This document shows, piece by piece, positions 1-62,477 of a stretch of DNA of 64,000 nt; positions within the stretch are counted from its first letter, which is position 1; each line of letters starts with the position of its first letter. The notes under the pieces were generated by a model that saw nothing but the letters and a program-made list of their open reading frames with translations, ran no database searches and was not told the origin of the DNA. A program made the position numbers and the translations under genes. Location of the stretch: IMG/VR virus record IMGVR_UViG_2687453534_000001; one strand, written 5' to 3'. This DNA is from a virus.

Positions 1-849
1 TTAGCGCAGATTGAACGTCGACGGATCGGGGCCGATGCGACCGTCGGCCGCGTCGAGCCCGGTGATGCGTTCTACCTCGTCGGTGCTGAGTTCGAATCCG
101 AATACATCGAAGTTGGCCGCGATGCGCGCCGGCGTCACCGACTTGGGAATGACGACGTTGCCCAGCTGAAGATGCCAACGCAGGATCACCTGCGCTGCGC
201 TCACCCCGTGGCCCTCGGCGATGGCGCCAATGGTCGGGTCGTCCAGGATCGTGCCCTGGCCAAGTGGCGACCATGCCTCGGTGAGAATGCCGTACTCGGC
301 GTGGAAGGCGCGCAGCTCGGGCTGGGTGAACCGGGGATGCAGCTCGATCTGGTTGAGAGCAGGCACTTCTCCGGTTTCATCGATCAGCCGCTGGAGATTC
401 TCGACGGTGAAATTGCTGACCCCGATGGCCTTGGCTCGGCCGTCGGCCTGGATTCGCTGCAGAGCCTTGAAGCTGGCCACGTACTCGTCGAGTTCGGGCA
501 CCGGCCAGTGGATCAGGTACAGGTCCACATAATCGGTCTCCAGCCGCTCCAGGGAGGCGTCAAACGCGCGTAGCGCGCTGTCATAGCCCTGATCGGCATT
601 CCACAGCTTGGTGGTCAGGAAGACATCCCCACGGGGAACCCCGGACTGCGCGATGGCGCGTCCTGTGCCCTCCTCGTTCTCGTACACCTTCGCGGTGTCG
701 ATGCTCCGGTATCCGACCTGCAGTGCGGTCGATACCGCCGCCTCGGCTTCGTCACTGGGCACTTGCCAGACGCCATAGCCGAGCTGGGGAATCGTGGTAC
801 CGGAATTGAGCGTCACGTTGGGGACTATCTGGGGAACCGTCACGGTCAA
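1..849 (-). CDS. Aldo/keto reductase (2,5-diketo-D-gluconate reductase-like), host gene
   Basis: 282-aa ORF with the AKR signature (LGYGVWQV, IDTAKVYENE, LYLIHWP, IGVSNF). TTG start at 849-847, stop at 3-1. High GC3. Confidence 0.88.
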   Translation of the reverse strand: MTVTVPQIVPNVTLNSGTTIPQLGYGVWQVPSDEAEAAVSTALQVGYRSIDTAKVYENEEGTGRAIAQSGVPRGDVFLTTKLWNADQGYDSALRAFDASLERLETDYVDLYLIHWPVPELDEYVASFKALQRIQADGRAKAIGVSNFTVENLQRLIDETGEVPALNQIELHPRFTQPELRAFHAEYGILTEAWSPLGQGTILDDPTIGAIAEGHGVSAAQVILRWHLQLGNVVIPKSVTPARIAANFDVFGFELSTDEVERITGLDAADGRIGPDPSTFNLR

Positions 850-899
850 CCCAACGCGGGGCGTCGCGGAGTATTCCCGGGGGTCTCGGGGGGTAAATG

Positions 900-935
900 A
901 AACGCCCCGCTCCCAATGCTGGGAGCGGGGCGTTT
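900..935 (-). terminator. Perfect hairpin immediately 3' of the tRNA-Lys fragment (tRNA terminator; also the AKR upstream region)
   Basis: AAACGCCCCGCTCCCA-atgc-TGGGAGCGGGGCGTTT, a 16-bp perfect inverted repeat seen directly in the sequence. Confidence 0.5.
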
Positions 936-939
936 CTGG

Positions 940-995
940 TGGTGCGCCGTCAGGGGCTCGAACCCCGGACCCGCTGATTAAGAGTCATCGAGTGC
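940..995 (-). tRNA. 3' portion of tRNA-Lys (CTT), probable attL core: anticodon arm, T-arm, acceptor 3' strand and CCA
   Basis: Reverse complement reads ...GACTCTTAATCAGCGGGTCCGGGGTTCGAGCCCCTGACGGCGCACCA, with anticodon loop CTCTTAA (CTT). No matching 5' acceptor or D-arm lies to the right; the sequence diverges into phage DNA next to the integrase. Confidence 0.6.
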
Positions 996-3040: not shown

Positions 3041-3535
3041 TTACTTGGGGGTGTTGGTTCGAGTCTGGCGATTCGTTTTCTTTGGGGCTCCAGGCTCAGG
3101 TTTAGTCTTGGAGCCCAATACTTTTGGGGCACTTTCAGTGTCCCTGTCGCCATCATTTTCGCTCGCTTTGATCATCTCGCGCAAGAGCGACAGCATGAGG
3201 CCGAGCTGAGCGTCACCCAATTTTTCGGCGCCAGGGGGCAGCATCGCCGCCAGTCGTGAGACGTCCTCTTCGACGGGTAGGCCGACAGATCGGGCTATCG
3301 ACAGCAATATGACATCGAGCTTCACGTTGAGCGCGCGAGCCATGCCTTCTATCGATGCGGGTTCTGGGAACTCCTTGACTTTGATCCCGTTGGTGATCTG
3401 GTTCCAACGTTGGGCCTTCACCACTCCGCCGCTGGCGTCCTCTAGGTCCTTGTATGTCCGATCACCCTTGAGCGTGAGTATCAGGTCTTGGAGAGTCAAC
3501 CCATCCTCATCGCTACTCGCGTTGGTTATAGGCAT
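3041..3535 (-). CDS. Immunity repressor, XRE-family HTH
   Basis: HTH segment RTYKDLEDASGGVVKAQRWNQI. Divergent from the cro-like operon across the operator-rich intergenic region. Confidence 0.7.
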   Translation of the reverse strand: MPITNASSDEDGLTLQDLILTLKGDRTYKDLEDASGGVVKAQRWNQITNGIKVKEFPEPASIEGMARALNVKLDVILLSIARSVGLPVEEDVSRLAAMLPPGAEKLGDAQLGLMLSLLREMIKASENDGDRDTESAPKVLGSKTKPEPGAPKKTNRQTRTNTPK

Positions 3536-3549
3536 CTTGTCTTCCGATC

Positions 3550-3795
3550 GTCGGTGTTCACTAGTAGTTAGCGGCCCTATCAGTTCTATTTGATCTCGAA
3601 ATTACCGGTAATGCAACTAGTAGCTCGTGGTTGCTGAACCTTACAACATCACTGCTCAGTGCGCAGGGCTTCGTTAGTCCGCCCGCGTGGCGGACTAGTA
3701 GATTCGCTAGACACGCCATATCAGTGGTTGACAGAGTGATAGCTAGTAGTTGATGATCTACGCATCCCGTTCACCTACTAGTCACCGCATCGTTA
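3550..3795. promoter_or_regulatory. Divergent early promoter/operator region with an ACTAGT palindrome array
   Basis: ACTAGTAG-type sites near 3560, 3616, 3695, 3743 and 3777. 23-bp palindrome TAGTCCGCCcgcgTGGCGGACTA at about 3675-3697. TTGACA at 3728-3733. Confidence 0.6.
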
Positions 3796-3799
3796 TGGG

Positions 3800-4111
3800 G
3801 TGACGCTGAAGGGTTGTGAATACGTGGCGCACGATGTCAGATCAGTCGAGGTCAAGAACCTACCGCTGCTGCGCAGCCTGGTCGGTCCTGAGCCCGAGAA
3901 GCTGATGACGGCTCGTAATCTGGCTCAAAGAATCGGCAAGCACCCGTCTTTCATCGGCCACCTCCTCAGTGGCGATCCCGATCGTTGCCGAACCTTCTCT
4001 ATCGAAGTGGCGCAGGCGATTTCGGTGGCTCTCGGCGTGAAGATGTCGAATCTTTTTCAGCCCGCATCATCAATTACCAGACAACGACGTACCAACCAAC
4101 AGGCGAGTTGA
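3800..4111 (+). CDS. Cro-like HTH transcriptional regulator
   Basis: GTG start, no SD (possibly leaderless). HTH MTARNLAQRIGKHPSFIGHLLSG. An internal ATG at 3905 is an alternative start. Confidence 0.6.
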   Translation: MTLKGCEYVAHDVRSVEVKNLPLLRSLVGPEPEKLMTARNLAQRIGKHPSFIGHLLSGDPDRCRTFSIEVAQAISVALGVKMSNLFQPASSITRQRRTNQQAS

Positions 4112-4347
4112 TGTCCGATCTGATCACGGGCGAGATCACCGTCGGAATGGAACCGATCTTCGTACCCAAGAAGGTCGCCGCTGCGGCGCTGGGTGCGATC
4201 TCTCTGAACAAGCTCAATGAACTCATTAGGACAGGTCGTATCAATCCCCGAGTGTTAGACGGACGCGTGATGTTCACACCCGAGGAGTTGCGGAGATTTG
4301 CTGCCGAGCTGCCCTCTTGGGAGCCCCCAGAGAGTCGGGGGCACTGA
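4111..4347 (+). CDS. Small HTH DNA-binding protein (excisionase/MerR-like)
   Basis: 78 aa. ISLNKLNELIRTGRINPRVLDGRVMFTPEEL. TGATG overlap with the upstream gene. Confidence 0.55.
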   Translation: MSDLITGEITVGMEPIFVPKKVAAAALGAISLNKLNELIRTGRINPRVLDGRVMFTPEELRRFAAELPSWEPPESRGH

Positions 4348-5705
4348 TGGCGCTGAAACTCGGTTCACTGTTTTCGGGCGCTGGAGGCCTGGATCTTGGT
4401 GTCACTTCCATCTTCGACGCTGAGACCGTCTGGATCTGCGAATTCAACAAAGACGCTCAGAAGGTGCTCGCGGCCCGCTTTCCGGGTTTACCCAACTTGA
4501 TCGACGTGACCGCCGTGGACTGGACCACGGTCGAGGGTGTTGACATCCTGTGCGGCGGTTTTCCCTGCCAGGACGTGAGTTGCGCGGGTGTCCGCAAGGG
4601 GTTGACCGATGGAACGCGCTCGGGCCTGTGGTCCTACTTCGCCGAGGCCATCTCAGTGCTTCGCCCGAAGTTCGTCGTGATTGAGAACGTGAGGGGTCTA
4701 CTCAGTGCAACCGCCGATCGCAACATGGAACCCAGCGACTCAGACCTGGGAGAAGACGCAGGACAGCCTTCACTCAACGCGGCCGGAGCCGTACTCGGAG
4801 ACCTGGCCGGACTCGGGTATAACGCGAGCTGGCGGACTGTATCCGCGTCATGGTGGGGAGCCCCGCATCAGCGCGAACGAGTCTTCATCCTTGCCTATCG
4901 CGCCGACCTCACGGCGGCAGAAGTCGAAGAAGCAATCCGACCCGAATCAGGAGTCATTCCTGACCTGACCGGTATCGGCGACGGTGATCTACTGCCGACG
5001 CCCACCGCGGGGTACTACACCCGCGGGTCTAAGCATCTGATGCTGCCGTACGTCGCGCAGTACGCAACGGGACATGATCCGGTGCCGAATCGGCCAGACC
5101 TCAAGGGTCGGCCCGATCCGCTGCTGCCGACGCCCATTGCGCTCCAGAACAACACGCACAACAGCGCGGGCAAGCCGATGTTGACCGGGCTGGTCAAGGA
5201 GCTGTTCCCCACACCGCGGGTGAGCGACGGCAACGGTGGTGCGGGGCACCACGGCACCGGCGGACCTGATTTACGGACGGCCATCGATGACACGTTCGCG
5301 CTCATGCCCACGCCGATGGCTACAGACGGTGTTCGTAAGGGGTATCACCCGAATCGGCGTCGCGAAATCGGCATCGGTGTATCGATCGTTCAGATGATCG
5401 ACCTCGCGGTCGCGTACAACGAACCCGAGTGGCACCAGTACGACCCCGCGGTGAAGCGGTGGGAAGCCCTCTTCCGACCCGCGCCATACCCCGTGGTCCC
5501 TGGTGGCGGGTCGCCGCAACTGAATCCGCGGTTCGCCGAGTGGATGATGGGCTGGCCGCTGGATTGGGTCAATATCGAAGGACTCTCACGGCGCGCGCAA
5601 CTGCGCATCTGTGGCAATGGCGTGGTGCCGCAACAGGCAGCCGGCGCGCTGCGCTGGATGCTCAGTGACCTACTCGCAGAGCTGCATGCGTCGGTGGCGG
5701 CATGA
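4347..5705 (+). CDS. DNA (cytosine-5)-methyltransferase (orphan Dcm-type)
   Basis: Motif I LFSGAGGLDLG, motif IV GGFPCQDVS, motif VI ENVRGL. TGATG coupling. No adjacent restriction endonuclease. Confidence 0.9.
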   Translation: MALKLGSLFSGAGGLDLGVTSIFDAETVWICEFNKDAQKVLAARFPGLPNLIDVTAVDWTTVEGVDILCGGFPCQDVSCAGVRKGLTDGTRSGLWSYFAEAISVLRPKFVVIENVRGLLSATADRNMEPSDSDLGEDAGQPSLNAAGAVLGDLAGLGYNASWRTVSASWWGAPHQRERVFILAYRADLTAAEVEEAIRPESGVIPDLTGIGDGDLLPTPTAGYYTRGSKHLMLPYVAQYATGHDPVPNRPDLKGRPDPLLPTPIALQNNTHNSAGKPMLTGLVKELFPTPRVSDGNGGAGHHGTGGPDLRTAIDDTFALMPTPMATDGVRKGYHPNRRREIGIGVSIVQMIDLAVAYNEPEWHQYDPAVKRWEALFRPAPYPVVPGGGSPQLNPRFAEWMMGWPLDWVNIEGLSRRAQLRICGNGVVPQQAAGALRWMLSDLLAELHASVAA

Positions 5706-31713: not shown

Positions 31714-34700
31714 GCAGGCTCAAGCGCTCCAGGGCGTTCTGGGTGATCTTACTACGCTGTCCACCAAAGATCTTGTGGGCCTGTACAAGAAGCTCGAAAG
31801 CGACGGCGCGACGGGTGCCGACCTGCTGGACGCGTTCAAGGCCGTTTTCCCCGAGGTTGTACAGCCCTACGTCGAGGCCGCATCCCAGGTCGCGAATCAG
31901 TGGTACGGGGAGCTGGCACCTGATGAGCCCTACACACCAAAAGCGGTTGACGCGATTGACGCGGTGCCACAAGACCGCATGATGAACTCGCTGGAGTGGG
32001 CGTTTCGCGCAGCTGGCACCGCTCATCCGCTGACCCGGCTGACGGGTTCGGCACAGCGCATGGTGTTCGACGGTGCTCGCGCGACGATTCTGCGCAACGC
32101 CGACGCCGAGAAGGTCAAGTACTCGCGCCTGGCGTCGCCGGGTGCGTGCGAGTTCTGCCGAGTGATGGCCACGCGCGGAGCGGTATACCGCAGCGCTCAC
32201 GCGGCGCAGGCCGGCCATGACAACTGCCATTGCGTGCCGGCTGTCGCTCGCGGAAAGCTCAAGTTCCAGCGTCCGGGGTATTACCAGGACTGGGACGCCG
32301 AGTACATCGACACGGTCAAACAGCTCGAAGCTGAGCAGATCAAGCCGACGCTCAACGCGGTCCTGTCGAAAATGCGGGCCAACGAACTGGCCGCGTCAGA
32401 CAGCGGGCCAACACTGGTAGCGATGTCTACCAAGAAGTCACCGGCGCCAGCAGACATGGCCAAGTGGCTTGATGCCGAGAAACAGCATCAGTACGACGTG
32501 TCAGCGTGGTTGTCGGCCGAGAAGAGTCACACCAAGAAGTTGGCCAAGGCCGCGGCGCAGGCCAAATACGTGGCCAAGAAGAAGGCGACCGCCGAATGGC
32601 TGGCGGCCGAGCAGCAGCACCAGGCCGACGTGTCGGCGTGGCTGGTGGCCGAGAAGGACTTCACCAAGAAGAAAGCGAAGGCGGCGGCGCAGGCCAAGTA
32701 TGTGGCCAACAAGAAGGCCGCCGCCAATACCGTCGCGTGGCTCAAAGCCGAGCAGGTCTACAACGAACAGCAGACATTGCTTGAGATGGCAGCCGAGGCA
32801 GCCAAGGCATCCGCGAAGGTCGCCGCAATGGCCAACGCGGCGGCGAACGTCGATCTCAAGAAGGCGTCCAAGGCGCTGGCGGCGGCCAAGCACGCGGCGA
32901 AGAAGAAGGGCGACACCACCAAGTACGACGCACTGGCCAAGATGACACCCGCCGAGTATGCGGCATCCAAGGGTGGGGTGGCCGCGCCGAAAGCCACGAC
33001 AACGATCACCGCGAAGGTCACCACCCCGGAGACCGCGGCGACGGCGGGCATCGGCACCGTCAGCACCGCCACCAAGCCCAAGGCTGTCGTTGGTGCGCTG
33101 ACCGACTCACCGAGCGCTCTCGCCAGCACCGGCCAGGTTCTCGGTACTCACGGCGCCACCGTGTACACCGACTCCACGTCTCAGAAGTGGTTGGTCAAGG
33201 GTCCCAAGAACCCGAATGATCAATTCCTGGTCACGCTGGATGCGGCATCCGCTGAGCTGCAAGCGAAGTCGGGCTTGACTACACCGGCGATGTACATCAT
33301 GACGGTAGGCGGCAAGCGTCAGTCCGTTCAGTACATGTTCCCCGGCAGCAAGAGTGCCTTTCCTTCTGGGGTTGACCTGTCCACAATCAGTGAACCTGAT
33401 CTGTTGACGATCCAGAAGCATCACGCGCTCGACTGGCTGATGGGTAACCACGACAGTCATGCCGGGCAGTTCATCCGTGCTGGTAGCGGTGAGATTGTCG
33501 GAATCGACAAGGGCCAAGCTTTCAAGTATTTCACCGGCGACAAGCTGGACTGGAACTATCACCCCAACGTCAAGCACGGCACGCCAGAACCCATTTACAA
33601 CACGCTGTTTCGACAGTACGCCGAAGGCAAGCCCGGTAAGTTGCTCAATCCCTCGGGCGGCGAGCTAGCGGACTACATCCAAGGTCTACAGGCGATCCCA
33701 GACAAGGAGATCCGCAACCTATTCCGGCCCTACGCCGAGGGTGCGGTCAAACAGGGAAAGCTGTTGGTCGAGGCCAACGGTAGCACTCCGACGAACAATG
33801 TTGACGCGTTCCTAGAAGCCGTTGTTGCCAGAAAGAACGGTCTCGCAAACGATCTGAGCGCGTACTACGTCAAGGCTGTCGAAAAGCGCCTGACGAAAAC
33901 CAAAGTCAAGGGTGAGGTCACCACCGTGACGCCGGGGATGACCATCACGCAGGGTGACTTCCTACCACCAACTCCGATCCCGACTGGTCCGACGCCGGTC
34001 CTGTCTGGAGACGCGCTCAAGAAGGCTGGTAAGGCGCTCGCATCAGCCAAGTACCTGGCGAAGAAGAAGGGGGACACCGCCAACTTCGCTCAACTGTCGA
34101 AGATGACACCCGAGCAATACTGGCAGATGAAGAACGGCAATGGGCCTAGCCAACCTGTTGCGGCACAGTCTGTTACGAAGCCTGCGAAGGGGACAAAGTC
34201 CGCCAAGTTACTTGAATGGGAAAAAGAATTCCTGAAGACGTCCGGGTCGAGTGGGTTCTTCCAGCCTGTCAAGGCGTACGCGGTCGAGAAGGGTATCAAG
34301 CTCTCCGAGGCCATCCCCGAATTCGACAAAGAGTTCGGTATCGCGGCGCTCACCACTGATCAGTTGGCGAACCTGCTGGGCTACTACGACGTTGGGGTCC
34401 AGACCAAATGGCTCGGCAAGTACGGTGACGCACTCGGCGACGACATGGCCAAGAATGTGCTGGACAAGCTCAAAGCCCAGGGTAACTCCAAGATCAAAGA
34501 ACCTCCGAAACCTGTTGTCATTAAACAGGGGACGAAGTACACCCCCGAGCATGAGCAGCCCGCGGGCGAGCTGGCCAAGCTCGGCAAGACGGTTATCGCC
34601 AACTCCAAGGCCCCCGTCGGATCTGCCGACAACCCGCACGTTTTCGATGCCAGCGGCAAGGCGGTTGAGTGGCAGCAGTTCGGCTCGCTGATGTCGCCAC

Positions 34701-35881: not shown

Positions 35882-35935
35882 GGTAGAGCACTCTACCACC
35901 GAATTGGTAGAGACGTATACCACCCTCACCGCACA
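35882..35935. promoter_or_regulatory. GGTAGAG palindrome/repeat (GGTAGAGcaCTCTACC, then a second GGTAGAG); candidate operator/promoter
   Basis: The same motif family recurs at 61161-61226. Confidence 0.4.
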
Positions 35936-61160: not shown

Positions 61161-61230
61161 GGTAGACCAATCTACCGTATCACATTGGTAGAGCCGTCTA
61201 CTAGCATCTCGGTAGAATGAACTACCAAGA
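61161..61230. promoter_or_regulatory. Divergent promoter region with three GGTAGA-type palindromes; candidate -10 TAGAAT at about 61214
   Basis: GGTAGAccaaTCTACC, GGTAGAGccgTCTAC and GGTAGaatgaaCTACC. Confidence 0.45.
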
Positions 61231-61253: not shown

Positions 61254-62051
61254 ATGACCGACGAAAAGATCGTTGACAAGATCGCAAAGCTGTTGCGACA
61301 GGCCGAGGATGTGGCAGGTACGCCCGAGGAGGAGGCATTTCAGGAACGCGCCTTCGCGCTGCTTGCCAAGCATGGCATCGACCTGGCGACTGTGCGCGCG
61401 CATCAGCGCGGTCTCGACATCAGCGACATACCGAACGCCATCGACACGCTAATGCTCGTTCATAGTCCTTACGCGAGTGAGCAGAAGCACATGCTGTCCA
61501 TCCTCGCGGAGGCGTTGCACTGCAAGACCGTTGGACTCAATGACATCCCGTTCGTGCACGTCTTCGGTATGTCTCACCATGTTGAGCGTCTACAGATGCT
61601 CTGGGAGATATTGCAACCACAGGCGACGCGCTTGGTTGCCAAAGTGCAGATGCCGGAACAGAAACGGGTTCAGAAGCTCACCCAACCCGAGTGGGCGGCG
61701 ATGAATAGAGCCGAGCGGATGAACCACCTGGTGGAGATGTCGCGCGAAATGCGCGCACCGGTATCGCTGCACGTCTACCGCCGGTCCTGGTTGATCGGGT
61801 TCGCCGCGTCGATCGCTCAGCGCATCAAGCTCCAGGAAGGTGAGGCCGCCGACAAGGCTGGCGTGGTCGCGCTGTACAAGTCCGACCGTGAGCGCGCTGA
61901 CGACGCGATGCGCGGCGCGTACCCGGACGCCGTCAACACGATGGTGGACCAGTTCAGTGACGATGGATTCAACCAGGGCGCGCGCGCCGGACAGACCGCG
62001 ACCATGGATCGGCCGGTTGAGTCGGTAGACCCTCTAGGTTTGCCGCGCTAG
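61254..62051 (+). CDS. DUF2786-domain protein
   Basis: N-terminal KIVDKIAKLLRQAEDVAGTPEEEAFQERAFALLAKHGIDL. Confidence 0.7.
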   Translation: MTDEKIVDKIAKLLRQAEDVAGTPEEEAFQERAFALLAKHGIDLATVRAHQRGLDISDIPNAIDTLMLVHSPYASEQKHMLSILAEALHCKTVGLNDIPFVHVFGMSHHVERLQMLWEILQPQATRLVAKVQMPEQKRVQKLTQPEWAAMNRAERMNHLVEMSREMRAPVSLHVYRRSWLIGFAASIAQRIKLQEGEAADKAGVVALYKSDRERADDAMRGAYPDAVNTMVDQFSDDGFNQGARAGQTATMDRPVESVDPLGLPR

Positions 62052-62087
62052 TAGCTTGCACTACCGGCCACGTCACTAGACTAAAAG

Positions 62088-62477
62088 GTGACAACTGGAG
62101 GACACTTCATGACCATGGCAACAGCTCCCACCAACGCAGCCGGATGGCTACGCGACAACGGTTTCAAGCTGTCTCGCGCAGCATCGGCGCGTTTCGCGGA
62201 CACGTTCAACGATCTTGTCGAGCGCTACGCAGACCCAGCGGAGTATCCGATGCGCGACGCGGCGATCATGGCTGCGGCGCGGTATCTCTCGGAAGAGCTG
62301 ACCCTGGATGATGCTGGTTTGGCGCTGGAGCGAGCGCGGAGCCGCGCCGACACGGGCATGGCCGTCGCGCGCGTCGTGGCGCTGCTGTCGATGGAGGACG
62401 GTCTGAGTGAGCATGGCGCACAGCGCGCGGCCCGCGTTGATCGTATGACGGTGCGGCGTTGGAGAGGGAAGCGGTGA
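62088..62477 (+). CDS. Hypothetical protein
   Basis: 129 aa. Confidence 0.5.
   Translation: MTTGGHFMTMATAPTNAAGWLRDNGFKLSRAASARFADTFNDLVERYADPAEYPMRDAAIMAAARYLSEELTLDDAGLALERARSRADTGMAVARVVALLSMEDGLSEHGAQRAARVDRMTVRRWRGKR

What the first reader, a model, noticed from the sequence alone, without database searches (positions are those of the whole stretch)
3550..3795. Operator array of ACTAGT-centred sites plus a 23-bp palindrome between the repressor and the cro-like gene
The 265-bp divergent region contains five ACTAGT(AG)-type sites: cACTAGTAG, aACTAGTAG, gACTAGTAG, gCTAGTAG and tACTAGTca. It also contains the perfect palindrome TAGTCCGCC-cgcg-TGGCGGACTA, which itself ends in ACTAGTAG, and a TTGACA -35 hexamer at 3728. 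This is the probable genetic switch, with multiple operators for the XRE repressor and Cro.
Basis: seen in the sequence. Interest (0 to 1): 0.5.

Follow-up and report, generated by a model that had tools for sequence, protein, structure and literature searches.

The report
Operator sites of prophage McProf's switch
The flagged stretch is the on/off control region of a known Mycobacterium chelonae prophage (McProf), holding five conserved copies of a short DNA word that most likely act as docking sites for the phage repressor; this is an ordinary kind of element that has not been described for this phage.

Summary
The window is prophage McProf (cluster MabR) of M. chelonae ATCC 35752, at 100% identity. 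The finding lies in the 288-bp gap between the annotated immunity repressor gp3 and Cro gp4.

ACTAGTAG occurs four times in 64 kb (0.24 expected), all within 3560-3782, and a fifth copy reads GCTAGTAG. The motif is R-CTAGTA-R-n-T.

The CTAGTA core is kept at four sites in all five MabR prophages, including one whose switch is only 57% identical. Site 4 fills the spacer of an invariant TTGACA-18-GATGAT promoter facing cro. Distant phages carrying the same repressor/Cro pair have a CTA(G/C)TAG-type element at that same position.

The 23-bp palindrome is perfect only in McProf and decays without compensation in relatives. I do not count it as a separate element.

gp3 matches no Pfam family, and a low-confidence model gives an XRE-like fold. 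I cannot tell from sequence whether gp3, Cro or both bind the sites.

Verdict: a probable and previously undescribed operator array, a new member of a known kind, of modest interest. A second motif class, GGTAG-N6-CTACC dyads at three other intergenic regions, was noticed in passing.

The parts
3041..3535 (-). gp3, the immunity repressor of McProf (164 aa). It has an N-terminal five-helix HTH-like domain, a C-terminal helix and a basic Lys/Pro/Thr-rich tail.
   Evidence: 100% identical to BK061309.1 gene 3, annotated 'immunity repressor'. Matches phrog_12831 at E 2e-38. No Pfam hit. AF2 model and Foldseek search. Highly expressed in lysogeny (PMC8191103).
3536..3823 (.). Divergent intergenic switch region (288 bp) between gp3 and cro.
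   Evidence: Annotation. Alignment of five MabR prophages, A1.
3560..3569 (+). Site S1, ACTAGTAGTT. It lies 25-32 nt upstream of the gp3 start codon, in the gp3 leader.
   Evidence: Present in all five genomes; in FSQJ01 it reads GCTAGTAGTT and is shifted by 2 bp in A1.
3616..3625 (+). Site S2, ACTAGTAGCT. It lies just downstream of the conserved minus-strand -10-like hexamer TAAGGT.
   Evidence: Variants in relatives are ACTAGTAA and GCTAGTGA.
3694..3703 (+). Site S3, ACTAGTAGAT. Its 3' half overlaps a conserved plus-strand TANNNT hexamer (TAGATT, 3699-3704), and its 5' half is the right arm of the palindrome.
3742..3751 (+). Site S4, GCTAGTAGTT. It lies inside the 18-bp spacer of the cro-ward promoter and ends 2 bp before the -10 hexamer.
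   Evidence: The CTAGTA core is invariant in five genomes.
3773..3782 (-). Site S5, ACTAGTAGGT on the minus strand. It lies 16-25 bp downstream of the -10 hexamer (inside the predicted cro transcript) and forms an inverted pair with S4, 32 bp start to start.
   Evidence: (repeat I2). Present in four genomes and lost in FSQJ01.
3728..3757 (+). Predicted early rightward promoter P_R: TTGACA (3728-3733), 18-bp spacer, GATGAT (3752-3757).
   Evidence: Both hexamers are invariant in five genomes.
3638..3643 (-). Candidate -10 hexamer (TAAGGT on the minus strand) of a leftward promoter for gp3.
   Evidence: TANNNT is kept at the aligned position in 5 of 5 genomes. This is prediction only; no -35 match was found.
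3699..3704 (+). Candidate -10 hexamer (TAGATT) of a second rightward promoter, overlapping S3.
   Evidence: TANNNT is kept in 5 of 5 genomes. Prediction only.
3675..3697 (.). Interrupted palindrome TAGTCCGCC-cgcgt-GGCGGACTA. Its right arm is the 5' flank of S3. It is probably not an element in its own right.
   Evidence: repeat I4. It is perfect only in McProf; 4 of 9 pairs break in relatives with 0 compensatory changes. Fold z-scores are -1.6 and -1.9.
3824..4111 (+). gp4, a Cro-like HTH protein (95 aa). The Shine-Dalgarno-like GAAGGG lies at 3808-3813.
   Evidence: Annotation. Weak Pfam HTH_3 hit, E 7e-4. Homologues accompany the gp3 family in distant phages.

Best explanation
The region is the lysis/lysogeny switch of prophage McProf. 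Five copies of a short asymmetric word, R-CTAGTA-R-n-T (S1-S5), are operator sites for the switch regulators, most likely the immunity repressor gp3.

**Proposed mechanism (inferred, not shown).**
- gp3 bound at S4 (in the spacer of TTGACA-18-GATGAT) and at S5 (16-25 bp downstream of the -10 hexamer) blocks RNA polymerase at the cro/excise/early operon.
- S3 covers a second possible rightward -10 hexamer.
- S2 and S1 lie in the leader of the leftward gp3 transcript and would give autoregulation.
- The sites are single words 33-78 bp apart, not 14-17-bp dyads. Occupancy therefore probably depends on protein-protein contacts between gp3 molecules, through the C-terminal helix, and on DNA looping.
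- The Cro-like gp4 probably competes at a subset of the sites.

**Status of each step.** Shown: the sites exist, are far more frequent than chance, are conserved, and overlap a conserved promoter. Inferred: that gp3 binds them, the stoichiometry, the looping and the autoregulation.
For: - **Identity and context.** The window is McProf. gp3 is the annotated immunity repressor and is highly expressed in the lysogen; gp4 is the annotated Cro.
- **Statistics.** ACTAGTAG occurs 4 times against 0.24 expected, always in this 223-bp stretch. The best 7-mer occurs 5 times, which 0 of 300 shuffles of the region reach.
- **Conservation.** CTAGTA is invariant at S1-S4 in the four close genomes. Against FSQJ01, the core is 21 of 24 identical (23 of 24 once a 2-bp misalignment at S1 is corrected), versus 57% for the rest of the region (P about 1e-3). 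The only changes inside sites are purine-for-purine at the two R positions.
- **Spacing.** No indels separate S2 from S5 in any of the five genomes. The CTAGTAG clusters sit in the switch of every MabR genome fetched.
- **Position.** S4 lies in the spacer of the only sigma-70-like promoter, and both hexamers are invariant.
- **Family-wide architecture.** On the cro-ward strand, TTGACA is followed by a 17-18-bp spacer that ends in a CTA(G/C)TAG-type element just before an NAnnnT hexamer. Examples: McProf GCTAGTAG, FSQJ01 GCTAGTAA, MooMoo GCTACTAG, metagenomic L021 TTGCCTACTAGGCAA, Gordonia phages Morkie and Kenna GCCTAGnnCTAGGC, and L025 GTCTACTG.
- **Homologues.** Those with the same predicted recognition helix (KAQRWNQ, invariant in 17 proteins) show RGTAG enriched upstream: 17 observed against 4.65 expected. 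Of 43 TAGs there, 17 are preceded by RG, against 13.7% expected.
- **Fold.** The gp3 N-terminal domain models as five helices, and its best structural matches are XRE-type HTH repressors.
Against: - There are no binding, transcription-start or reporter data for McProf, and the two McProf/MabR papers do not mention operators.
- The sites lack a dyad partner at one helical turn, which is unusual for XRE-type dimers.
- The FSQJ01 repressor is only about 50% identical and differs at 5 of 11 positions of the predicted recognition helix, yet it keeps the same CTAGTA sites. This fits the better-conserved Cro (68% identical) at least as well as gp3.
- The repressor and the Cro-like gene are co-inherited across the family, so covariation cannot assign the sites to either.
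- The family-wide RGTAG enrichment is confounded, because intergenic DNA is compared with coding DNA. It is not significant locus by locus against dinucleotide shuffles.
- The gp3 model has low confidence (mean pLDDT 57.6), and the Foldseek E-values are 0.1-0.6.
- The four close relatives add little statistical power (P 0.03-0.2).
Confidence: 0.62

Rival explanations
1. The CTAGTA sites are read mainly by the Cro-like protein gp4, or by gp4 and gp3 together as in lambda. The repressor's own specificity determinants would then lie elsewhere in the region.
For: - Cro's HTH segment is nearly the same in McProf and FSQJ01, and the proteins are 68% identical overall. The sites are also the same in both, whereas the gp3 recognition helix differs at 5 of 11 positions.
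- The Cro-like recognition helix (PSF[IV]GHLL) stays similar in MooMoo, Morkie and L025. These share the CTA(G/C)TAG element in the P_R spacer, while their most repeated locus-specific words differ: GGTAGACGG, TAGGCG and GTAGACA.
Against: - Five sites spread over 220 bp, including two in the gp3 leader, fit a repressor that both shuts P_R and autoregulates better than they fit a small Cro.
- Homologues sharing McProf's exact gp3 recognition helix share the GTAG/TAG core.
- No other repeated word in the McProf switch is a credible alternative repressor site.
Confidence: 0.2
2. The sites are stray half-sites of a different regulon, the GGTAG-N6-CTACC dyads found elsewhere in the prophage. That regulon would be controlled by another protein, for example the right-arm HTH protein gp89. 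In this reading the dyad-binding protein reads them and the immunity repressor does not.
For: - The dyads are real: 8 matches with at most 1 mismatch against 0.6 expected. They lie in the gp56/57, gp87/88 and gp88/89 intergenic regions.
- They are conserved in all five MabR genomes.
- In FSQJ01 the dyad half-sites read CTAGTAGA, and one is the perfect 20-bp palindrome CTAGTAGACATGTCTACTAG. The two motif classes therefore share CTAGTAG/GTAG.
Against: - No N6 dyad exists in the switch region.
- In the four McProf-type genomes the dyad half-site is TGGTAGA, which shares only GTAG with the switch word.
- In the switch, the constraint falls on CTAGTA, and the final G of GTAG is often A.
- gp89 homologues occur in about 90 cluster K phages that lack this switch.
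Confidence: 0.07
3. The 23-bp palindrome is itself a functional element: a dyad operator, or an RNA hairpin or terminator separating the leftward and rightward transcription units.
For: It has a perfect 9-bp GC-rich stem in McProf. The minimum free energy is -20.4 kcal/mol on the plus strand and -19.4 on the minus strand. The left arm, TTAGTCC, is invariant in five genomes.
Against: - It is perfect only in McProf. Four of 9 pairs break in relatives with no compensatory change, and pairing is no better than in shuffled controls.
- The hairpin disappears from the predicted folds of FSIL01, FVLQ01 and FSQJ01.
- Z-scores are only -1.6 and -1.9, there is no T-run, and no terminator-like hit was found.
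Confidence: 0.06
4. The repeats are not protein-binding sites at all. They could be chance, leftovers of a local duplication, or target sites of the adjacent C5 cytosine methyltransferase gp6 or of a host restriction system.
For: All ACTAGT (SpeI-type) sites of the window lie here. A C5 methyltransferase gene lies 600 bp downstream.
Against: - The chance expectation is 0.24.
- The flanks of the five copies are unrelated, so this is not a duplication.
- The cores are conserved above background and sit at a fixed position in the promoter spacer across distant phages.
- A methylase target would be scattered through the genome rather than confined to 220 bp.
Confidence: 0.04

Closest known systems
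Lambda-type CI/Cro switch (OR1-OR3 between cI and cro)
   Same: The repressor and cro genes are divergent. Several repressor sites overlap the early rightward promoter and the repressor's own promoter region. Autoregulation and Cro competition are expected.
   Different: Lambda operators are three adjacent 17-bp pseudo-dyads, whereas these are five 8-10-bp non-dyad words 33-78 bp apart. gp3 has no detectable S24 peptidase (RecA-cleavable) domain and no Pfam match.
Cluster A mycobacteriophage repressors (L5 gp71, TipsytheTRex) with asymmetric 13-bp operators and stoperators (PMC9283540, PMC6550527)
   Same: This is a mycobacteriophage immunity repressor for which short asymmetric sites, without dyad symmetry, are the recognition unit. 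One site lies at the early promoter.
   Different: Cluster A sites number 20-30 and are spread across the genome in one orientation, where they stop elongation. Here every exact site is confined to the switch. A gp3 profile finds no relative among solved structures, and its model matches plain XRE domains.
SinR of Bacillus subtilis (own knowledge: an XRE-type HTH plus a helical oligomerisation domain, binding 7-bp GTTCTYT words in inverted, direct or single arrangements)
   Same: The domain logic is predicted to be alike: an N-terminal XRE-like HTH and a C-terminal helix. The recognition word is short and occurs as single copies, as an inverted pair (S4/S5) and, possibly, as true dyads elsewhere.
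   Different: No sequence relationship was shown. SinR is a chromosomal biofilm regulator, and oligomerisation of gp3 is untested.
Phage P2 C repressor (own knowledge: binds two directly repeated 8-bp half-sites flanking the -10 of the early promoter Pe)
   Same: Short, directly repeated sites of about 8 bp, not dyads, at an early promoter.
   Different: P2 has two sites about 22 bp apart. Here there are five sites at irregular and longer spacings, one of them inverted.
Immunity cassettes of phages with gp3 homologues: cluster K2 (Milly gp35), DS6A gp58, MooMoo gp42, Gordonia phages Morkie, Kenna and BetterKatz (phrog_12831)
   Same: The repressors are homologous (27-50% identity), and most have a homologous Cro-like partner. 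Each has its own repeated TAG-containing word: MooMoo GGTAGACGG in 4-5 copies, Morkie TAGGCG in 4 copies. The P_R-spacer architecture is shared.
   Different: The words differ outside the TAG core. In K2 phages the homologue is not divergent from a cro gene and sits next to a gp89-like HTH gene. I found no published operator for any of these phages.

Membership tests
Phage immunity (repressor/Cro) switch region | Lies between divergently transcribed repressor and cro-like genes next to the integration cassette of a prophage. | tested here: met
   McProf annotation: int gp1, gp2, repressor gp3 (minus strand), Cro gp4, excise gp5. attL lies at 943-987.
Phage immunity (repressor/Cro) switch region | Repeated sites that overlap the early lytic promoter. 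| tested here: met
   S4 lies in the spacer of TTGACA-18-GATGAT and S5 lies 16-25 bp downstream of the -10 hexamer. The promoter is predicted, not mapped.
Phage immunity (repressor/Cro) switch region | The sites are conserved in related phages with homologous repressors. | tested here: met
   for the five MabR genomes. One search shows the analogous element in distant relatives.
Phage immunity (repressor/Cro) switch region | The repressor physically binds the sites and represses the promoter. | not testable with these tools
   This needs EMSA, footprinting, ChIP or reporter assays. None is published for McProf.
Lambda-like CI repressors and tripartite operators | Operators are 14-17-bp pseudo-palindromes in adjacent triplets. 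| tested here: not met
   The sites have no dyad partner at N6, or with up to 3 mismatches. Spacings are 56, 78, 48 and 33 bp.
Lambda-like CI repressors and tripartite operators | The repressor carries a C-terminal S24/LexA-type autocleavage domain. | tested here: not met
   No Pfam family matches at E up to 5. The C-terminus is one helix plus a disordered basic tail.
XRE (Cro/C1-type HTH) transcription factors | Sequence match to the HTH_3 / HTH_XRE profiles. | tested here: not met
   gp3 has 0 Pfam hits, and a profile search finds no PDB relative. Cro gp4 has a weak HTH_3 hit of 20.1 bits, below the cut-off of 23.
XRE (Cro/C1-type HTH) transcription factors | Five-helix 434-Cro-like fold. 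| tested here: inconclusive
   The AF2 model has helices at 15-23, 28-34, 41-48, 59-69 and 73-83, with pLDDT of only 60-76. Foldseek hits include 434 Cro, C.Esp1396I, ClgR and DdrO at TM 0.6-0.72 (target-normalised), but with E-values of 0.1-0.6.
Cluster A stoperator system | Dozens of asymmetric sites spread through the genome, oriented with transcription. | tested here: not met
   All ACTAGTAG copies are in the switch. CTAGTA[AG] elsewhere has 5 scattered hits in 68 kb, and two of them are halves of a different dyad motif.
phrog_12831 / MabR-K2-DS6A repressor family | Significant sequence similarity of the repressor. | tested here: met
   phrog_12831 at E 2.2e-38. tblastn hits to Milly, DS6A, Kenna and MooMoo. 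This agrees with PMC8191103 and PMC9434293.

The most novel reading that the evidence does not exclude
gp3 defines an uncharacterised family of actinophage repressors with no Pfam model. These proteins would read a very short TAG-centred word (CTAGTA/RGTAG) in whatever arrangement it occurs: single copies, inverted pairs 3 helical turns apart, and true GTAG-N6-CTAC dyads. In McProf, one repressor would then tie the lysis/lysogeny switch to the promoters of lysogenically expressed islands (gp56, gp84-87, gp88-90) in a prophage known to raise whiB7-dependent antibiotic resistance in its host.
Probability: 0.2. Interest if true: 0.55.

Novelty: new member of a known kind. Interest (0 to 1): 0.35.

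Why it matters
McProf is one of the few Mycobacterium chelonae/abscessus prophages with a demonstrated effect on the host: higher whiB7 expression and increased antibiotic resistance (PMC8191103). Its control circuit has not been described.

- Knowing the operators and the early promoter gives concrete targets for building de-repressed or lytic derivatives.
- It also helps predict immunity groups among the MabR prophages. McProf and FSQJ01 share the same sites even though their repressors are only about 50% identical.
- It provides the information needed for ChIP and reporter experiments.

More generally, the repressor family has no Pfam model and appears to use short non-dyad words. That is a less common operator design, although not an unprecedented one.

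Tried and rejected
- **More relatives for footprinting.** The genome-contig scan with a repressor alignment gave 1 locus (a first alignment was too diverse). The viral-contig scans, by protein and by DNA pattern, returned only the same MabR, DS6A and Milly contigs. The protein database gave 17 homologues. Of 9 look-ups, 6 returned DNA, 2 had no DNA available and 1 was not on record.
- **Family-wide core as GTAG or TAG.** Tested against dinucleotide shuffles, this was not significant in most loci. Only McProf and MooMoo were clearly significant, with FSQJ01, Morkie, L021 and L024 weaker. I therefore present the family-wide code as suggestive only.
- **Palindrome as a conserved dyad or hairpin.** Rejected.
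- **A second small hairpin in the cro leader (3781-3804).** It has one compensatory pair, but it is no better than shuffles and its fold z-score is about 0. Left as a passing note.
- **Dyad partners for the switch sites.** None was found at N6. The GTAG-N8-CTAC arrangement at S4 is not conserved.
- **Known RNA families.** None in 3300-4000.
- **Is gp89 related to gp3?** No.
- **Cluster K SAS/ESAS elements as an explanation for the dyads.** The papers give no matching consensus in their text.
- **Integrase arm-type sites or iterons.** Rejected on position: the region is 2.5 kb from attL, far from the replication genes, and the spacing is irregular.

Full report
**What the window is.** A megablast of 1000-9000 matches Mycobacterium phage McProf (BK061309.1), the cluster MabR prophage of M. 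chelonae ATCC 35752, at 100% identity. Window position equals record position plus 942. The published 45-bp attL lies at 943-987 (sequence from PMC8191103). The GenBank annotation places these genes:
- tyrosine integrase gp1
- gp2
- immunity repressor gp3 at 3041-3535 on the minus strand
- Cro gp4 at 3824-4111
- excise gp5
- a C5 DNA methylase, gp6

The finding therefore lies in the 288-bp divergent region 3536-3823. That codon is missing in prophiFSQJ01-1, whereas GTG 3824 and its GAAGGG ribosome-binding site are retained.

- ACTAGTAG occurs four times in 64 kb, against 0.24 expected, and none of 100 shuffles reaches four. All four copies lie in 3560-3782.
- The fifth copy of the family is GCTAGTAG at 3742-3749.
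- All four ACTAGT hexamers of the window are here.
- CTAG is not avoided in the window (93 observed, 103 expected).
- The flanks of the copies are unrelated, so this is a repeated word and not a duplication.
- TTGACA at 3728 is real and pairs with GATGAT 18 bp downstream. This is the only sigma-70-like match in 3400-3950.
- The palindrome has 9-bp arms and a 5-nt spacer.

**What the motif is.** I aligned the five sites in the five sequenced MabR prophages: McProf, FSIL01-1, FSAT01-1, FVLQ01-1 and FSQJ01-1. This gives R-CTAGTA-R-n-T.
- The six core positions match the consensus in 22-25 of 25 instances.
- Both R positions vary only between purines.
- The T two bases downstream is present in 23 of 25 instances.

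The unit is therefore asymmetric and about 10 bp long. 'ACTAGT-centred' is a side effect of two overlapping small palindromes, ACTAGT and CTA-G-TAG. Four copies point the same way. S5 is inverted and forms an inverted pair with S4, 32 bp start to start (repeat I2).

**Conservation.** The four close genomes have switches 86-94% identical to McProf's, so they carry little weight (P 0.03-0.2). FSQJ01 is the informative one.
- Its switch is 57% identical outside the sites.
- The CTAGTA cores of S1-S4 are 21 of 24 identical in the MAFFT alignment, and 23 of 24 once a 2-bp misalignment at S1 is corrected (P about 1e-3).
- S5 is lost in FSQJ01.
- There are no indels between S2 and S5 in any genome, while the S1-S2 interval carries a 13-bp deletion in FSQJ01.
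- In every MabR genome fetched, the CTAGTAG heptamers cluster in the switch.

**Relation to promoters (predicted only).**
- TTGACA-18-GATGAT is invariant in all five genomes.
- S4 fills the spacer and ends 2 bp before the -10 hexamer. S5 lies 16-25 bp downstream of the -10 hexamer.
- Two further TANNNT hexamers are kept at aligned positions in 5 of 5 genomes: TAGATT at 3699-3704 on the plus strand, overlapping S3, and TAAGGT at 3643-3638 on the minus strand, just upstream of S2 in the direction of gp3.
- S1 lies 25-32 nt upstream of the gp3 start codon.

A repressor bound at S3-S5 would close rightward transcription. Bound at S2 and S1, it would sit on its own leader.

**Evidence from distant relatives.** gp3 belongs to phrog_12831. 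It has homologues in cluster K2 phages, DS6A, MooMoo/TChen, several Gordonia phages and 16 database proteins at 41-88% identity. Most loci also carry a homologue of the Cro-like gp4.

On the cro-ward strand these loci show the same layout: TTGACA, then a 17-18-bp spacer whose 3' end is a CTA(G/C)TAG-type element, then NAnnnT.

| Phage or locus | Element at the 3' end of the spacer |
|---|---|
| McProf | GCTAGTAG |
| FSQJ01 | GCTAGTAA |
| MooMoo | GCTACTAG |
| L021 | TTGCCTACTAGGCAA |
| Morkie / Kenna | GCCTAGnnCTAGGC |
| L025 | GTCTACTG |

This recurrence at a fixed promoter position in phages of different genera is, to my mind, the strongest argument that S4 is an operator.

Several loci also have their own repeated TAG-containing word. 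MooMoo has GGTAGACGG in 4-5 copies, which no shuffle reaches. Morkie has TAGGCG, L021 has GTAGGCA and L024 has GGCGACAC.

Homologues with McProf's exact predicted recognition helix (KAQRWNQ, invariant in 17 sequences) show RGTAG enriched upstream: 17 against 4.65 expected, and 17 of 43 TAGs preceded by RG against 13.7%. That comparison sets intergenic DNA against coding DNA and is not significant locus by locus. I treat a family-wide 'code' as suggestive only.

**The proteins.**
- gp3 has no Pfam hit, even at E 5, and no relative among solved structures by profile search.
- An AlphaFold2 model built on 17 sequences has low confidence (mean pLDDT 57.6). It gives a five-helix N-terminal domain (pLDDT 60-76), a long helix at 108-128 and a disordered basic tail.
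- Foldseek's best matches to the domain are XRE-type HTH proteins: 434 Cro and repressor, C.Esp1396I, ClgR and DdrO. Target-normalised TM-scores are 0.6-0.72 and rmsd 2.6-3.6 Å, but E-values are 0.1-0.6.
- 'XRE repressor' is thus plausible at the fold level and unproven.
- There is no LexA/S24-type domain, so induction is unlikely to follow the lambda route.
- gp4 has a weak HTH_3 hit.

**Who binds?** This cannot be settled from sequence.
- For gp3: it is the lysogenically expressed regulator, the sites cover both promoter directions, and homologues with the same helix share the core.
- For Cro: between McProf and FSQJ01 the sites are unchanged and Cro's HTH is nearly unchanged, whereas gp3's predicted recognition helix differs at 5 of 11 positions.
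- The two genes travel together. As in lambda, both may use the same sites.

**The palindrome.** TAGTCCGCC-cgcgt-GGCGGACTA is perfect only in McProf. In relatives 4 of 9 pairs break, none is compensated, and pairing is no better than in shuffled controls. The hairpin is absent from the predicted folds of three relatives, and z-scores are -1.6 and -1.9. No terminator-like site was found. Its right arm is simply the upstream flank of S3. Its left arm, TTAGTCC, is invariant and may be a sixth, degenerate site. I do not count the palindrome as a separate element.

**Comparison with known systems.** In function this is a lambda-type divergent switch. In operator design it differs, with short non-dyad words 33-78 bp apart in place of adjacent 17-bp dyads. 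It resembles:
- the asymmetric sites of cluster A mycobacteriophage repressors (PMC9283540), though without their genome-wide stoperators;
- the direct repeats of the P2 C repressor (own knowledge);
- the variable arrangements of 7-bp SinR sites (own knowledge).

Neither McProf paper mentions operators or promoters, and text searches for the motif found nothing relevant. I class the finding as a new member of a known kind.

**Noticed on the way.** A second motif class, GGTAG-N6-CTACC, gives 8 matches with at most 1 mismatch against 0.6 expected.
- It lies in the divergent gp56/gp57 region (35882, 35906), in the divergent gp87/gp88 region (61161, 61187, 61211), upstream of the HTH gene gp89 (62050), and inside gp54 (32416).
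- The right-arm dyads are present in all five MabR genomes.
- In FSQJ01 their half-sites read CTAGTAGA, including the perfect 20-bp palindrome CTAGTAGACATGTCTACTAG.
- Whether gp3 or gp89 binds them is open. gp89 is unrelated to gp3. It has homologues in about 90 cluster K phages, and in Milly its homologue lies immediately after the gp3 homologue.

**Verdict.** Interest is modest at 0.35.

Noticed in passing
window 35882-35897, 35906-35921, 61161-61176, 61187-61202, 61211-61226, 62050-62065, 32416-32431; also L027 20395-20500 (FSQJ01): A second motif class, the 16-bp dyad GGTAG-N6-CTACC (consensus tGGTAGAnnnnTCTACCa), gives 8 matches against 0.6 expected. The copies sit in the divergent gp56/gp57 and gp87/gp88 intergenic regions, upstream of the HTH gene gp89, and once inside gp54. 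The right-arm copies are conserved in all five MabR prophages. In FSQJ01 the half-sites read CTAGTAGA, including the perfect 20-bp palindrome CTAGTAGACATGTCTACTAG, so they share the switch word. The binding protein is unknown.
   Followed up: partly
window 62109-62477 (gp89); L006 1495-2365 (Milly gp35-gp36): The right-arm HTH protein gp89 has homologues in about 90 cluster K mycobacteriophages, including TM4. In the K2 phage Milly its homologue (gp36, 47% identity over 73 aa) lies directly after the gp3 homologue gp35. The two regulators are therefore linked in K2 phages but sit at opposite prophage ends in MabR.
   Followed up: partly
window 3781-3804: A small hairpin, GTCACCgCAT-cgtt-ATGgGGTGAC, lies in the predicted cro leader, abutting S5 and just before the ribosome-binding site. 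One stem pair varies as T-A, C-G and T-G among relatives, and FSQJ01 has a different hairpin (CCTCG-tctt-CGAGG) at the same place. Statistically it is no better than shuffles, and its fold z-score is about 0.
   Followed up: yes
window 3041-3535 (gp3): The immunity repressor matches no Pfam family, even at E 5, and no solved structure by sequence. It ends in a basic Lys/Pro/Thr-rich disordered tail. The predicted recognition helix KAQRWNQ is invariant in 17 homologues that are only 41-55% identical overall.
   Followed up: partly
L009 1296-1466 (MooMoo); L012 1253-1440 (Morkie); L021 1780-1920; L025 649-830; L024 1394-1540: Distant phages and prophages with gp3 homologues each carry their own repeated TAG-containing word in the repressor/cro gap. 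MooMoo has GGTAGACGG in 4-5 copies, including the palindrome CGTCTACAGGTAGACG. Gordonia phages have TAGGCG/TAGGCGCCTA, L021 has GTAGGCA, L025 has GTAGACA/GTAGCCA, and L024 has TAGGCGACAC. I found no publication describing any of these.
   Followed up: partly
window 3560-3782 and 4317-5705: Every ACTAGT (SpeI-type) site of the 64-kb window lies in the switch region, and a C5 cytosine methyltransferase gene (gp6) lies 600 bp downstream. I did not examine whether the operator words are methylated.
   Followed up: no
window 1-942: The host flank to the left of attL (943-987) carries an aldo/keto-reductase-like ORF on the minus strand (1-849). The window ends about 5 kb before the prophage's right end (record 63058 of 68223), so the polymorphic-toxin cassette gp96-99 and attR lie outside it.
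   Followed up: no
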